Below, in pieces: positions 2,057-62,520 of a stretch of DNA of 64,000 bases; position 1 is the stretch's first letter; the number at the start of each line of letters is the position of its first letter. Source of the stretch: Eledone cirrhosa (Eukaryota); assembly GCA_964016885.1 (NCBI GenBank), contig OZ024740.1:262198001-262262000 (forward strand), given 5' to 3'. The position numbers and the translations under genes were made by a program. The notes under the pieces are model-generated. The model did not search any database. It was not told where the DNA came from and was given only the letters and a program-made list of their open reading frames with translations.

Positions 2057-2297
2057 GGAACGAGTAGGACCCCGACGGCTGAGCTCAAGCCGTTTCGACG
2101 GCTAATTCTGGACTAAAATGCCTCTCTCTCTATACTATTCCGTTTGTCCCCTCACCTAGTCCAGAATTAGCCGTCGAAACGGCTTGAGCTCAGCCGTCGG
2201 GGTCCTACTCGTTCCTAATACCCACTCTACTACCCTAAGTATTGAGTACTTTGGTGCGTTATGGTCCACCTGGTTCCTTACCACATTTCCTTCGTTA
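2057..2297 (+). mobile_element. Fold-back mini-insert Y with the 3' half of a hammerhead
   Basis: 2057-2115 is an inverted repeat of 2157-2215. Contains GAAA-CGGCT..AGCCG-TC (stem III plus GUC). The same element occurs at 55809-55945. Confidence 0.7.
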
Positions 2298-2647
2298 TAT
2301 ATATATATATATATATATATATATATATATATATATATATATATATATATATATATATATATATATATATATATATATATATATATATGTATATATATAT
2401 ATATATAAAATAAAGATAAAGATAATAATGAAAAAAATAAAAGCAAAGGAAGGAGTGAGAAAGAAGAAAAGAAAAGATAGCCAAGAAGGGGAGGGAGGGA
2501 AGGAAGGAAGAAAACGAAGAAATAGAAGAGGAATGAGGGAGAAGAGGGGGATATCTGTATTGGTTTTGTGGGTAATTAAAAGTGTTTAGATACAGCAAGA
2601 GGGTATAAAGTCTAAGTATATGCAGTTTGTCAGTTGGTAGTAAGAGG

Positions 2648-3793
2648 TTAAGGGTTCGATTGGTAGTGCGAAAACTTCTCTTTGAGTCTATGGTTACAAT
2701 AAATTGATCTTTCGATTTTATTGTTAAGTAACTTATTCTTCGAACTTAAGATGTGGAACAGCTCAAGGTCGCATAATTGACAGCTACTCATACCACTCCG
2801 ATATGGGGGCGCGTTCGATAATTTTTTCCACTTCAAGGTGTATTGATGGTTACTTTCCCTCAGTTGCCAGGTCTTGTTTGCAAGGGTAGTTACATAACGG
2901 TGCTGGGAATGTTTCATTGCGTAACGGTGTGTATACCAACGAGCTTTAAATGTATTCCCAGTCGCTCCGATGTAATACCATTTCTGTTTGTCTGATTCTA
3001 CTGTGCATTGGTAAACCAGGTTAGACTGCATGCATTCATTATGTAATGGACAGGTTTCAGGTAGGTGGCAGTTACATTTCTTGTCATGGGCAACTTTGGC
3101 ATTATTTGTGGGCTGCGATGCCTGTACAAGTGTGTTACGTTTTGTTTGCCTATTAGCGGGTGGTTGTGTATTAGATATTCTGTTGTGTTCGGTGGTGATT
3201 GTATTGTTATTGTCGTAAATTTGTGTTTTGGTGTTGTTATGTATCTTTTTAGCGTTAAGCATCTTAATGTGTGCTTCTATAGTTGGTGCCGTGGAGTAAG
3301 ATAGTCTAATAGATTTAGTGTTAAGGATTTTGCTGTATCTATGTGAATCTGGAAAGTGCTTATTTATTATTCTAAAGAAGGTAGAGGGTAGGTTAGTACT
3401 AATAGAGGTGTTAAATATGGGGTTATACCAAATATATTTTCTACTGCGTGACTTGTTTGATTTCGATGTTGTATTTCTATTTACCGTATACTTTGCAGTT
3501 CTATGAGTAAGTGCGTGTGTGCGTGTGTTACCGGAGTTTGTGTTATGCGTGTTCTTGTGCGCTTCACGGAGGCTTTCATCTATATATTCTACTCTATCTA
3601 AGTGTCCTGCCTTGTCTAATGCGGTATTGTAGTATTCTGCGTGTTCTTCGAAGATTTGTCGGTTAGACGAGAGGCGGGAGATCCTACGGGATATGCTTCG
3701 TGGAATGGATTTAATTATGGATAGTGGGTGGTTTGAGTTACAGTTGATGTATGCTAAGTTTTCATTAATGTTGTGAAAAGGTCTTATAACAGA
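2648..3793 (-). mobile_element. Penelope-like element ORF, 5'-truncated: RT thumb, linker and GIY-YIG endonuclease (Hydra-like)
   Basis: NSNHPLSIIKSIP, YIWYNPIFN..IINKHFPDSH, CNCHLPETCPL (CxCx5C), NLVY..YYIG..FKARW, CQLC..YCNH; frame open for ~380 codons. Confidence 0.92.
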
Positions 3794-3826
3794 CATAAGA
3801 GACGACGAGAAAAGGTCTTATAACAG

Positions 3827-4915
3827 GACATAACAGACGACGAGATAAAAATCATATTAGCTGCTAGTAAAACAATAATTAAATTTGAAAACGCCTATTG
3901 GGAACGTAAGGATAGATTAAATAACTTTGACATCACGATGGGAACTAACGACTCGGCTCAAGTCACAGATTTACTAGGTATTTACATAGCCCATAGTTTA
4001 CAAAGTGAGTTTAGCGACCTTCACGGTGGAATCTACAGAGACGACGCTCTTCTCCTAGTTAAGAAGCTAAATAACCAGAGCATAGAAAGACTCCGTAAGA
4101 ATATTAGACAGACTCGCGGAAAACTAGGCCTTAGCATAACGTATGAGTATAGCACTAAACCAGTTAACTTTCTAGACGTGACGCTTAAGCTAAATACGGG
4201 ACTTATAAGACCTTTTCACAAGATTAATGAAAACTTAGCATACATCAACTGTAACTCAAACCACCCACTATCCATAATTAAATCCATTCCACGCAGCATA
4301 TCCCTTAGGATCTCCTGCCTCTCGTCTAACCGACAAATCTTCGAAGAACACGCAGAATACTACAATACCGCATTAGACAAGGCAGGCCACTTAGATTGAA
4401 TAGAATATATAGATGAAAGCCTCCGTGAAGCGCACAAGAACACGCGTAACACAAACTCCGGTAACACACGCACACACGCACTTACGCATAGAACTGCAAA
4501 GTATACGGCAAATAGAAATACAACATCGAAATCAAACAAGTCACGCAGTAGAAAATATATTTGATATAACCCCATGTTTAACACCTCTATTAGTACTAAC
4601 CTATCCTCTACCTTCTTTAGAATAATAAATAAGCACTTTCCAGATTCACATAGATACAGCAAAATCCTTAACACTAAATCTATTAGACTATCTTACTCCA
4701 CGGCACCAAATATAGAGGCACACATTAAGATGCTTAACGCTAAAAAGATACATAACAACACCAAAACACAAATTTACGACAATAACAATACAATCACCAC
4801 CGAACACAACAGAATATCTAATACACAACCACCCGCTATTAGGCAAACAAAACGTAACACAAGTGTACAGGCATCGCAGCCCACAAATAATGCCAAAGTT
4901 GCCCATGACAAGAAA
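3827..4915 (+). pseudogene. Inverted arm of the same PLE: RT motifs 4-7 and linker, with stops
   Basis: FDITMGTNDSAQVTDLLGIY, GIYRDD catalytic motif, VNFLDVTL. ~4203-4915 is the reverse complement of ~3077-3791. In-frame TGAs at ~4397 and ~4562. Confidence 0.9.
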
Positions 4916-4937
4916 TTTTATATATATATATATATAT

Positions 4938-60208: not shown

Positions 60209-60220
60209 ATATATATATAT

Positions 60221-60865
60221 ATTTCGTTTCTGAATTTGTTTAGCAAGATTCTTTATCTGAAAACGTGTGTTGAAACCGATATTGTTATACTTTGGGAGGG
60301 TCATGTTGCCAATAAGAAACACACGCACCAGTTGCTTTCACTTCAATTTATTATAATAAATTTATAAATTTAGGAATTTATAAATTTCCGGTTGGTTGGT
60401 TGGTTCCACAACCAGATAGTTGTTTATATATTGTCAAAGTTCTTTCGTCACACATTCTGTGACCTCTTCAGTGACCGGGGATTCTTTTCTTTGTTTTTGT
60501 GCCTCTCCTTTGTTGTGTCCTACGCCATTTTGTTTCTGTGTGTGTGTTGTGTGCTCAGTCTGCGCATGCGCCACATCCGGGTATCTGTGTGTGTTTATAT
60601 TCGTTTATTTATTTGTTTATTTACATGTTGCCGGTTGGTTGTTTGTTCTATGTGCGTGTGTGTTTTCATGTGACTGAAGAGGTCACAGAATGTGTGACGA
60701 AAGAACTTTGACAATATATAAACAACTATCTGGTTGTGGAACCAACCAACCAACCAGAAATTTATAAATTCCTAAATTTATAAATTTATTATAATAAATT
60801 GAAGTGAAAGCAACTGGTGCGTGTGTTTCTTATTGGCAACATGACCCTCCCAAAGTATAACAATA
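60221..60865. mobile_element. Family Z fold-back; HHRs at 60433-60475 (-) and 60674-60712 (+)
   Basis: The inverted arm begins essentially at the CTGAAGA core (60673). Confidence 0.85.
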
Positions 60866-60971
60866 TATATATATATATATATATATATATATATATATAT
60901 ATATATATATATATATATATATATATATATATATATATATGTATATATATATGTATATATATATATATATA

Positions 60972-61945
60972 TATTGTTATACTTAGGGAGGGTCATGTTG
61001 CCAATAAGAAACACACGCACCAGTTGCTTTCACTTCAATTTAATTTATTATATATTTATAAATTTCTGGTTGGTTGGTTGGTTCCACAACCAGATAGTTG
61101 TTTATATATATATAGTCATAGTTCTTTCGTCACACACTCTGTGACCTCTTCAGTGACTGGGGATTTCTTTCTTCGTTTCTGTGCCTTTCCTTTCTTCTAT
61201 CCTACGCCATTTTGTTTGTGTGTGGGTTGCGTGCTCAGTTTGCGCATGCGCCACATCCGGGTGTCTGTGTGTGTTTGTGTTCATTTTTCTATTTTTCTAT
61301 TTATATTTTTCTATTTGTTTGTTTATTTATTTATTTATTGTTGGTTGGTTGTTTGTTCTATGTGTGTGTGTGTTTTCATTTTGTGTGTGTTTTCAATTGT
61401 AAGTTGTTTGTTTTATGTGTGTGTGTGTTTTCATTTTGTCCTTAATTGTAAGTTGTGATGTTGCTGTTCCACTCATATTTTCTATTTAATTTTGGTTTTA
61501 ATTCTTTTATGCTTACTGCCTCTGTAATTTGCCTAAACATTGCGTCTTTCTTGTGTGTGGATTCTATTTTTATTTCTATGCTCTCTAATTTACCCCTGTG
61601 TTCTATCTTAGCATGTTGGTAGAGCACAGATGATTCTTTATTATCTTGGAGGTCTCGCCAGCGTTCATTTATTCGTTCCCCTATACTACGAGCTGTCTCA
61701 CCTATGTACACTATATTTTTGTTTCTACATTGTCCTTCAGTACATCTTATGCTATATGTATAACCAACCAACCAGAAATTTATAAATTTGTAAATTTATA
61801 AATATATAATAAATTAAATTGAAGTGAAAGCAACTGGTGCGTGTGTTTCTTATTGGCAACATGACCCTCCCTAAGTATAACAATATCGGTTTCAACACAC
61901 GATTTCAGATAAAGAATCTTGCTAAACAAATTCAGAAACGAAATA
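60972..61945 (-). mobile_element. Family Z PLE: GIY-YIG ORF (61442-~61765), 3' UTR with HHR (61114-61158), and a 5' inverted 3'-end copy (61763-61945)
   Basis: YTYSIRC..C..VYIGETARSIGERINE..SVLYQH..H..RQITEAVSI..P.LN. HHR: AGTCA-CTGAAGA-G-GTCAC..GTGAC-GAAA-GAAC-TA-TGACT. Confidence 0.88.
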
Positions 61946-62186
61946 TATATATATATATATATATATATATATATATATATATATATAAAATTAAAAAAGA
62001 CACGCTAATCCCCTATAATTTAATGACCTCAATGAATAGATCCCAGGCTCTTTATAAGACAGTACATAGAGAAAAATACACAGAGAGGTATGTATTCAAT
62101 TATAAGGGATTGAATACCACCAGGGTGAAAACCATATTGTCTACGAATGGAATGGAGAATACATATCAATTAAAAGAATAAATTAA

Positions 62187-62520
62187 AATGTACTAACCAT
62201 CCGATAGTAACTATAAGCATGTTTCACCACAAATAAAGAGTAGATTCATACCGTGGAAGGCTGATCAACACGTGGATCAGCAGGTTCCCAGCTGCTGTTT
62301 TTAGCGGTCTTTTGGTGCATTCACACCACCATGGACTGTATAGCGCGCATGTTTTCTCTTTCCACCATGCATGTATAATAGTTATCTGATATATTTTTAG
62401 AAGTGTGGATCGTATTGTTGGTCCACCTGTTGATAAGCCCTCCACGGTATGAATCTACACTTTACTTGTGGTGAAACATGTCCAGATGTTATAGGTATTA
62501 TCAGATGGTTTGTACATTTC
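62187..62520. mobile_element. Older fold-back insert with HHR 3' half GAAA-CATG-TC
   Basis: ~62187-62277 inverts ~62422-62520 with several mismatches. Confidence 0.6.

What the first reader, a model, noticed from the sequence alone, without database searches (positions are those of the whole stretch)
2057..62520. Systematic fold-back (inverted-duplication) architecture of inserts at every scale
Seen: at least 15 palindromic inserts, with centres near 2135, 3800, 9433, 21058, 21850, 39948, 40865, 43460, 51750, 52052, 55400, 55836, 56207, 59485, 60570 and 62350. Arms range from ~20 bp to ~1.7 kb, and nearly all are bounded by (TA)n. Known: PLEs often have an inverted, truncated copy of the 3' end at their 5' side. 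Here inversion is the rule across unrelated families. Inference: because (TA)n is self-complementary, the endonuclease could nick both strands and prime cDNA from each, with the two cDNAs joining at microhomology.
Basis: partly seen in the sequence, partly recalled or inferred. Interest (0 to 1): 0.7.

Follow-up and report, generated by a model that had tools for sequence, protein, structure and literature searches.

The report
Penelope retrotransposons inserted head to head
The mirror-image stretches in this window are real and mostly the ends of several families of a known kind of jumping gene (Penelope-like elements) lodged in TA repeats, and because almost every insert pairs a short end with a longer 'tailed' end on either arm equally often, each was likely made by copying the element's RNA twice, once from each cut DNA strand, and joining the two copies.

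Summary
Observation confirmed: all 16 centres exist (26 inverted hits, 0 in 10 shuffles); 14 of 18 elements touch (TA)n at both ends. Most are Penelope-like (PLE) insertions: 3' ends outward at (TA)n, truncated 5' ends joined centrally. Families A, J, K carry Hydra-clade motifs. This shape is published. Genome copies add detail: in two families sampled without start-site bias, 30 of 31 pairs use opposite 3' start sites (tail on one arm only), and the tail lies on the longer or shorter arm 15:15. 32 of 44 insert-free junctions have 2-6 nt microhomology (16% expected). That favours two cDNAs primed from both nicked strands over snap-back or self-priming; a PLE protein extends both strands in vitro (PMC11167929). 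The families are mostly one class. One palindrome (59485) is a tail-to-tail LINE-like stub, probably a DNA-level fold-back. Reads were inconclusive for junctions. The scan noted the same pattern before, here and in other genomes.

The parts
1435..5403 (.). Family A Hydra-type PLE fold-back. Left arm (sense on -): ORF 3' part 2648-3817, 3' UTR with internal (TA)n, piece C 1569-2034, tail D 1435-1568. Right arm (sense on +): RT part 3824-4918, (TA)n, piece C 4939-5397, no tail, lacks the 2408-3075 segment. Junction about 3790-3830 with a 37-nt partly templated insert
2057..2295 (.). Family E stub nested in the internal (TA)n of A: inverted arm from upstream site, 36-nt spacer copied from neighbouring piece C (1808-1843), sense arm with about 80-nt tail
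8134..10648 (.). Family F fold-back, about 1.2-kb arms 99% identical, tail on the left arm; Hydra-type EN end found 1456 nt upstream of the 3' end in copy L106
21036..21369 (.). Family H stub with 20-nt inverted arm that does not start at a family start site; hammerhead-like core at 21123
21447..22420 (.). Family O fold-back: left arm from upstream site, right arm with about 165-nt tail, hammerhead-like core in both arms (21533, 22169); Hydra-type EN about 1450 nt upstream in long copies
39835..40151 (.). Family S fold-back with variable centre among copies and about 100-nt one-sided tail ending at (TA)n; no ORF linked
40514..41322 (.). Second family F fold-back, tail on right arm; inserted in the (TA)n beside a family I stub (40340-40471)
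41468..45401 (.). Family J Hydra-type PLE fold-back; EN region 43020-43631 (-) and 43636-44091 (+); tail of about 89 nt on left arm; about 50-nt insert at junction; secondary 55-nt hairpin at 44568-44678 in right arm only
48696..51001 (.).
51114..51477 (.).
51699..51871 (.). Family I stub, 4-nt overlap at junction by eye, hammerhead-like core, about 68-nt tail
51894..52620 (.). Family M: inverted arm plus partial tandem of an about 520-nt ORF-less unit with a hammerhead-like core at 52498
55062..55769 (.). Family N fold-back, 37-nt tail, hammerhead-like core at 55583
55810..55943 (.). Family E minimal fold-back joined at a near-palindromic site of the element; same junction in 23 of 25 query-selected loci
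56084..56237 (.). Family P56 stub, tail of about 90 nt on left arm
59434..59537 (.). Exception Q: two identical 43-nt stubs tail to tail around (TA)9; 85-86% like the 3' end of a LINE-like element in two other loci; exact sequence found only here
60223..60863 (.). Family H fold-back (GIY-YIG PLE), tail on left arm, hammerhead-like cores at 60471 and 60674
61988..62563 (.). Family R, old fold-back (83% arms), tail on left arm, right end lost
10668..13809 (.). Control, not a fold-back: family G, about 605-nt TA-targeted unit in direct partial tandems (also 59563-60207)
15240..16906 (-). Control: family P, PLE with C-terminal GIY-YIG and Neptune-like linker, TA-targeted, no inverted arm in this copy

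Best explanation
The fold-backs are insertions of several Penelope-like retrotransposon families and their stubs into (TA)n, each likely made by priming one cDNA from each nicked target strand and joining the two truncated cDNA ends. Shown here: 3' ends point outward at (TA)n; each family has two fixed 3' ends 37-180 nt apart; the two arms almost always use different ones; either arm can carry the tail; junctions carry short microhomology or short, partly templated inserts; the arms of one insert are usually more alike than copies at large. Inferred: a PLE protein dimer bound to the pLTR region of one RNA (or of two RNAs from one source) nicks both strands, one subunit starts at the upstream and the other at the downstream start site, both stall at independent points, and host end joining of the microhomology type joins them. 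(TA)n is the preferred target, not the cause of inversion. Q (59485) and the hairpin at 44623 are likely DNA-level inverted duplications.
For: Opposite start sites in unbiased samples: family A 13 of 13 scorable pairs (21 inverted among 30 loci), family K 17 of 18 (36 loci); together 30 of 31. Tail-selected samples: O 9 of 9, H 6 of 6, F 2 of 2; incidental pairs I 6 of 6, P56 4 of 4, S 8 of 11, E 44 of 47. Tail on the arm reaching further 5' in 15 and on the other in 15 (hand tally: A 6:7, K 9:8); in 15 inserts each arm therefore holds sequence the other lacks. Microhomology >=2 nt: 21 of 30 insert-free junctions in A, O, P, H against 16.4% simulated (p 1e-10; 21 of all 55, p 9e-5) and 11 of 14 in K (p 5e-7). 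Own partner closer than the median other copy in 32 of 42 (2.2% against 3.2% mismatch). Both 3' end classes of family E appear in raw reads of three other samples. PMC11167929 (parts 1-2 read): purified PLE protein cuts and extends both strands, starts at two sites that bound the tail, predicted dimer.
Against: Family P (Neptune-like) uses the same end on both arms in 3 of 4 pairs. K exceptions: L316 same site, L297 tail sequence on both arms; several K arms (L298, L305, L306, L316, L318) are internal pieces without a 3' end. 33 of 79 junctions have inserts instead of overlap, and two long apparent overlaps (24 and 17 nt) were left out. 10 of 42 arms are not closer to their own partner. Many copies show no inverted arm (A 8 of 30, K 10 of 36 automatic calls). 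Microhomology is generic for retrotransposon 5' junctions and my estimate takes the best of several references, which can inflate it. No ORF link was found for E, I, L, M, N, P56, R, S. One RNA versus two cannot be told apart. Reads did not span junctions. In vitro, start-site use did not differ between strands and pairing within one molecule was not measured.
Confidence: 0.7

Rival explanations
1. Self-priming or snap-back: one strand (antisense RNA as proposed in PMC3846280, or the nascent cDNA) folds back, copies itself, and the hairpin is resolved by the endonuclease and inserted.
For: Published proposal (PMC3846280 passages). Family E joins at one near-palindromic site in 23 of 25 query-selected loci. 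Arms of one insert are often more alike than other copies. A staggered cut across the stem would also give one tailed end.
Against: A copied arm cannot hold sequence that its template lacks, yet the short arm alone has the tail in 15 of 30 inserts; a fixed stagger would put the tail always on the same arm, observed 15:15.
Confidence: 0.12
2. One reading: inversion arises because (TA)n is self-complementary, so any element that targets it folds back.
For: Nearly all fold-backs here touch (TA)n; a symmetric target offers the same site on both strands; Q is centred on (TA)9; some junctions lie at the internal (TA)n of family A (L033).
Against: Family G ends at TA in about 28 of 30 copies with 0 of 30 inverted. 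Rotifer PLEs invert at sites with 8-10 bp duplications (PMC3846280). The anole PLE cuts both strands at ATT (PMC11167929).
Confidence: 0.08
3. Two independent insertions in opposite orientation, or MITE-like DNA transposons with terminal inverted repeats.
For: Opposed neighbours of different age exist (H copies tail to tail around 60864-60974, 78-89% alike; SINE pairs at 33398 and 63666). S and E recur with similar outer ends.
Against: No (TA)n at most central junctions, fixed pairing of start sites, variable centres and one-sided tails in S, RT and EN coding sequence inside arms.
Confidence: 0.05
4. Library or assembly artefact (fold-back reads).
For: Junction-spanning reads were not obtained: the E hairpin arm has depth 1-101 against about 5,000 beside it and the tool skipped Q. 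Q and E2 arms are 100% identical.
Against: Most arms differ by 1-18%; one arm alone carries nested insertions, a 668-nt gap or the tail; ends sit at family start sites in dozens of loci on many contigs. Hairpins are known to sequence poorly by short reads (recalled). Remains open only for Q.
Confidence: 0.05

Closest known systems
EN+ Penelope-like element insertion unit with inverted 5'-truncated copy and one-sided tail (PMC8557442 Fig. 2 legend and section 6 passages; PMC3846280 Pen2a_Av)
   Same: Head-to-head arms, 5' truncation, partial tandems, tail at one end, hammerhead-like cores, microsatellite targets.
   Different: Tails here are 37-180 nt against 30-40 nt; the papers say 'often' one end and give no count in the passages I saw; here 30 of 31 pairs and symmetric between arms; target duplications cannot be read in (TA)n.
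Hydra clade of C-terminal EN+ PLEs (PMC8557442 section 11; supplement lists Hydra-1_Obim, 2507 bp, (TA)n)
   Same: Families A and K: DKT, CxCX5C linker, CxxC and CxH around the conserved E and N, no CCHH, under about 3.3 kb, (TA)n insertion; RWK in A.
   Different: No canonical hammerhead core found in A; family A has an internal (TA)n in its 3' UTR; no tree built.
PAc, Poseidon element of the green anole (PMC11167929)
   Same: Two start sites bounding the tail; both strands usable as primers.
   Different: Other clade, cuts ATT, start sites lie inside the ORF start; pairing of start sites in one insertion not reported.
L1 twin priming (recalled; not read here)
   Same: Two primers on the two target strands, inverted arm, microhomology at the central junction.
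   Different: In L1 the second primer anneals inside the RNA and the arms barely overlap; here both arms start at defined 3' sites and duplicate the same sequence.

Membership tests
EN+ Penelope-like elements | RT with C-terminal GIY-YIG endonuclease in one ORF | tested here: met
   A: 609-aa and 537-aa frames with RT motifs and YIG region; K: 709-aa frame with DKT, YRDD, YIG; Pfam GIY-YIG for P (E 1e-4) and H (E 0.003, below cut-off). Pfam finds nothing for A, J, K.
EN+ Penelope-like elements | pLTR or partial tandem: 3' end repeated before the ORF | tested here: met
   A: piece D precedes the ORF in L039, L041, L047; M partial tandem.
EN+ Penelope-like elements | Inverted 5'-truncated copy at the 5' end and tail at one end | tested here: met
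EN+ Penelope-like elements | Hammerhead ribozyme motif in the pLTR | tested here: inconclusive
   Core-plus-stem-II patterns in H, I, M, N, O (shuffles 0.1-0.3 per window); none in A; stems I and III not modelled; Rfam gives only HH10 at E 0.14 on I.
EN+ Penelope-like elements | RT groups with PLEs in a phylogeny | not tested
Hydra clade | RWK and DKT motifs | tested here: met
   Both in family A N-terminal frame; DKT in K, RWK not within the K frame examined.
Hydra clade | CxCX5C linker; CxxC and CxH in EN; no CCHH | tested here: met
   A, J, K translations; EN ends of O and F show CxxC and CxH.
Hydra clade | Insertion into (TA)n | tested here: met
Hydra clade | Canonical hammerhead | tested here: inconclusive
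   Pattern in 27 of 30 O loci, not found in A.
MITE or foldback DNA transposon (considered for S, R, E) | Symmetric terminal inverted repeats with fixed interior and target duplication | tested here: not met
   One-sided tails and variable centres.
PLE-derived non-autonomous stubs (E, I, L, M, N, P56, R, S) | Link to an autonomous PLE ORF | tested here: inconclusive
   No consistent EN upstream in 263 loci, 1.24 Mb; assignment rests on architecture and hammerhead-like cores.

The most novel reading that the evidence does not exclude
PLE integration is obligately two-ended: one protein dimer on one RNA assigns the upstream start site to one target strand and the downstream site to the other, so the inverted arm and the one-sided tail are a single mechanistic signature, replacing the self-priming model; clades differ (Hydra-type strict, the Neptune-like family P not), and the same RT shows telomerase-like re-priming stutters at the start site.
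Probability: 0.4. Interest if true: 0.6.

Novelty: new member of a known kind. Interest (0 to 1): 0.35.

Why it matters
How PLEs make their tandem and inverted structures is named as an open question in PMC8557442. The counts turn it into a sharp test for the existing in vitro system: both ends of one product should use different start sites, on either strand equally. Practically, about 30% of this window lies in such units and about one fold-back per 9 kb occurs in a 200-kb genome sample, so they can be mistaken for MITEs, microRNA hairpins or assembly errors. The architecture itself is known, and the scan has noted the pairing rule before.

Tried and rejected
Rfam scans returned only hairpin and microsatellite noise, no family at its gathering score among the rows shown. 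Pfam has no model that hits the Hydra-type proteins. Family P was chosen as a non-TA control but ends at TA in nearly all of 30 copies, so the control failed. The genome search for family N found nothing, not even itself. An all-against-all junction mapping was confounded by inverted arms in other copies and discarded in favour of fixed references. S and R first looked like MITEs; one-sided tails and variable centres rejected that. Q first looked unique; diverged relatives showed a LINE-like 3' end. [quoted passage not shown]
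Full report
Setting. The window is G000:C1:262198001-262262000 of a 3.0-Gb genome in 1796 contigs, AT-rich and dense in microsatellites. I did not identify the host.

Observation. Inverted self-matches are far above chance: 26 hits in the masked window against 0 in each of 10 shuffles. Arms are 82-100% identical. The palindromes alone usually touch (TA)n at one end only; the second (TA)n lies 37-180 nt beyond the other arm. With that extension included, 14 of 18 elements have (TA)n at both ends and all at one. 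In twenty 10-kb pieces chosen at even places, 23 fold-backs occur in 200 kb, 12 with an end at (TA)n against 1.4% of random unmasked positions (edges of unmasked segments score 138 of 489, a control that is by design beside repeats). About 9 of the 23 show the same one-sided extension by eye. The window is about three times richer than the sample.

What the arms are. Units A, J and K contain RT-thumb, linker and endonuclease frames. Longer genome copies of A give frames with RWK, DKT, the RT core, a CxCX5C linker, a YIG region and CxxC/CxH without CCHH; K gives a 709-aa frame with DKT and the same linker. These are the diagnostics of the Hydra clade in PMC8557442 (section 11 read whole), whose members nearly all insert in (TA)n; its supplement lists octopus Hydra and Naiad families with that preference. 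O and F have Hydra-type EN ends about 1450 nt upstream (O in several copies, F in L106), H a GIY-YIG end about 335 nt upstream. H, I, M, N and O carry hammerhead-like cores. For E, I, L, M, N, P56, R and S no ORF link was found in 263 loci. Wherever the sense is known, 3' ends point outward and truncated 5' ends meet in the middle. This is the published PLE unit: an inverted 5'-truncated copy next to the 5' end, with a tail often on one end only (PMC8557442 passages; PMC3846280 passages).

Two start sites, paired. Each family has two fixed 3' ends followed by TA, an upstream (U) and a downstream one (D); the tail lies between. For A and K my queries lay upstream of both, so the sample is not biased to either. 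A: 30 loci, 21 with an inverted arm at the junction, 13 with both ends scored, all opposite (7 U/D, 6 D/U). K: 36 loci, 18 scored, 17 opposite, 1 same; of three unscored, one fits by eye (L299), one has tail sequence on both arms (L297), one is cut short. Together 30 of 31. Samples selected for D show U on the inverted arm in O 9 of 9, H 6 of 6, F 2 of 2; pairs met in all fetched loci give E 44 of 47, I 6 of 6, P56 4 of 4, L 2 of 2, S 8 of 11 (E, O, H, F and S loci are query-selected). Raw reads of three other samples show both E ends running into (TA)n (about 1,000-1,230 reads at U per run). The tail lies on the arm that reaches further 5' in 15 inserts and on the other arm in 15 (hand tally). 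Family P, with a Neptune-like linker, is the exception: 3 of 4 pairs use the same end.

Junctions. Of 55 junctions in A, O, P and H, 24 have inserts, 30 have 0-6 nt overlap and one long overlap was left out; 21 of 30 have 2 nt or more against 16.4% for random junctions. Of 24 in K, 9 have inserts, one long overlap was left out, 11 of 14 have 2 nt or more. Several inserts copy nearby sequence (3 of 13 long ones almost wholly). This resembles microhomology-type end joining (established knowledge, not tested). An inverted arm is closer to its own partner than to the median other copy in 32 of 42 cases, and best in 13, as expected for one event from one source; 10 cases do not fit.

Mechanism. PMC11167929 (first two of four parts read) shows that a purified PLE protein cuts and extends both strands, starts at two internal sites that bound the tail, and is predicted to be a dimer; it does not address inverted arms. 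Combining this with the counts, the likeliest course is two cDNAs, one from each nick, one per start site, stalled independently and joined (0.7). Self-priming (PMC3846280) or cDNA snap-back predicts that the short arm is contained in the long one, or that the tail always sits on the same arm; neither holds. One RNA versus two is not resolved.

Role of (TA)n. Family G, an ORF-less unit of about 605 nt, ends at TA in about 28 of 30 copies, forms direct partial tandems in 19, and has no inverted arm in any. Rotifer PLEs have the same inverted shape with 8-10 bp target duplications. So (TA)n is neither sufficient nor needed; whether it raises the rate is untested because no non-TA PLE turned up.

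Exceptions. Q (59434-59537) has its 3' ends inward: two identical stubs around (TA)9, 85-86% like the end of a LINE-like element in L327 and L108 (family judged by eye), exact sequence only here. The hairpin at 44623 is a local duplication in one arm of J.

Artefact. Divergent arms, one-arm insertions and gaps, and ends at family start sites across many contigs exclude fold-back reads for the imperfect units. Direct read support for junctions was not obtained.

Literature seen: PMC8557442 passages, sections 11 and 15, supplement rows; PMC11167929 parts 1-2 and passages; PMC3846280, PMC4209133, PMC13282606 and bioRxiv 10.64898/2026.07.22.740005 passages; others as listings only. Six searches found no printed count of start-site pairing. 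Earlier notes of this scan (read after my counts for A, O, H, F and before K and G were analysed) reach the same reading in this and other genomes; they are not independent support.

Verdict. Interest 0.35.

Noticed in passing
L215, L227, L230 (family O inverted arms); similar in L205, L220: The first 6-9 nt copied at the upstream start site are repeated two or three times next to the (TA)n, like telomerase-type slip and re-prime.
   Followed up: partly
window 10668-11272, 11648-12253, 13133-13809, 59563-60207: Family G: abundant ORF-less unit of about 605 nt, TA-targeted, one 3' end, direct partial tandems, never inverted; mobiliser unknown; reads of X7 show head-to-tail joints.
   Followed up: partly
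window 59434-59537: Perfect tail-to-tail duplication of a diverged LINE-like 3' stub around (TA)9, unlike the PLE units.
   Followed up: partly
window 2121-2157: The spacer of the nested E unit is a 36-nt exact copy of neighbouring host element sequence (1808-1843), a templated insert from about 300 nt away.
   Followed up: no
L128 near 1480-1500: An inverted arm of family E appears joined directly to a sense arm of family H, a possible chimeric insertion from two different RNAs.
   Followed up: no
window 4919-4938; L305: Some arms start at (TA)n at an internal ORF position or jump from the internal (TA)n of the 3' UTR into the ORF.
   Followed up: no
window 44-250, 19966-20144, 30289-30709, 33395-33572, 35540-35732, 37544-37737, 56689-56938, 57743-57946, 63568-64000: A SINE-like family of about 190 nt in many copies, not TA-flanked and without the fold-back shape.
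   Followed up: no
window 31176-31739 and 23601-24181: A 48-nt minisatellite with 11.8 copies and an open frame, and a C/A-rich 6- to 12-nt repeat open in three frames; no credible Pfam match for the first.
   Followed up: no
window 52906-55019: A decayed H-related PLE region with an EN remnant at 54703-54907 and old inverted matches (53000/54400).
   Followed up: no
window 45480-45720: A further PLE-like 3' end with a hammerhead-like core at 45596 on the minus strand.
   Followed up: no
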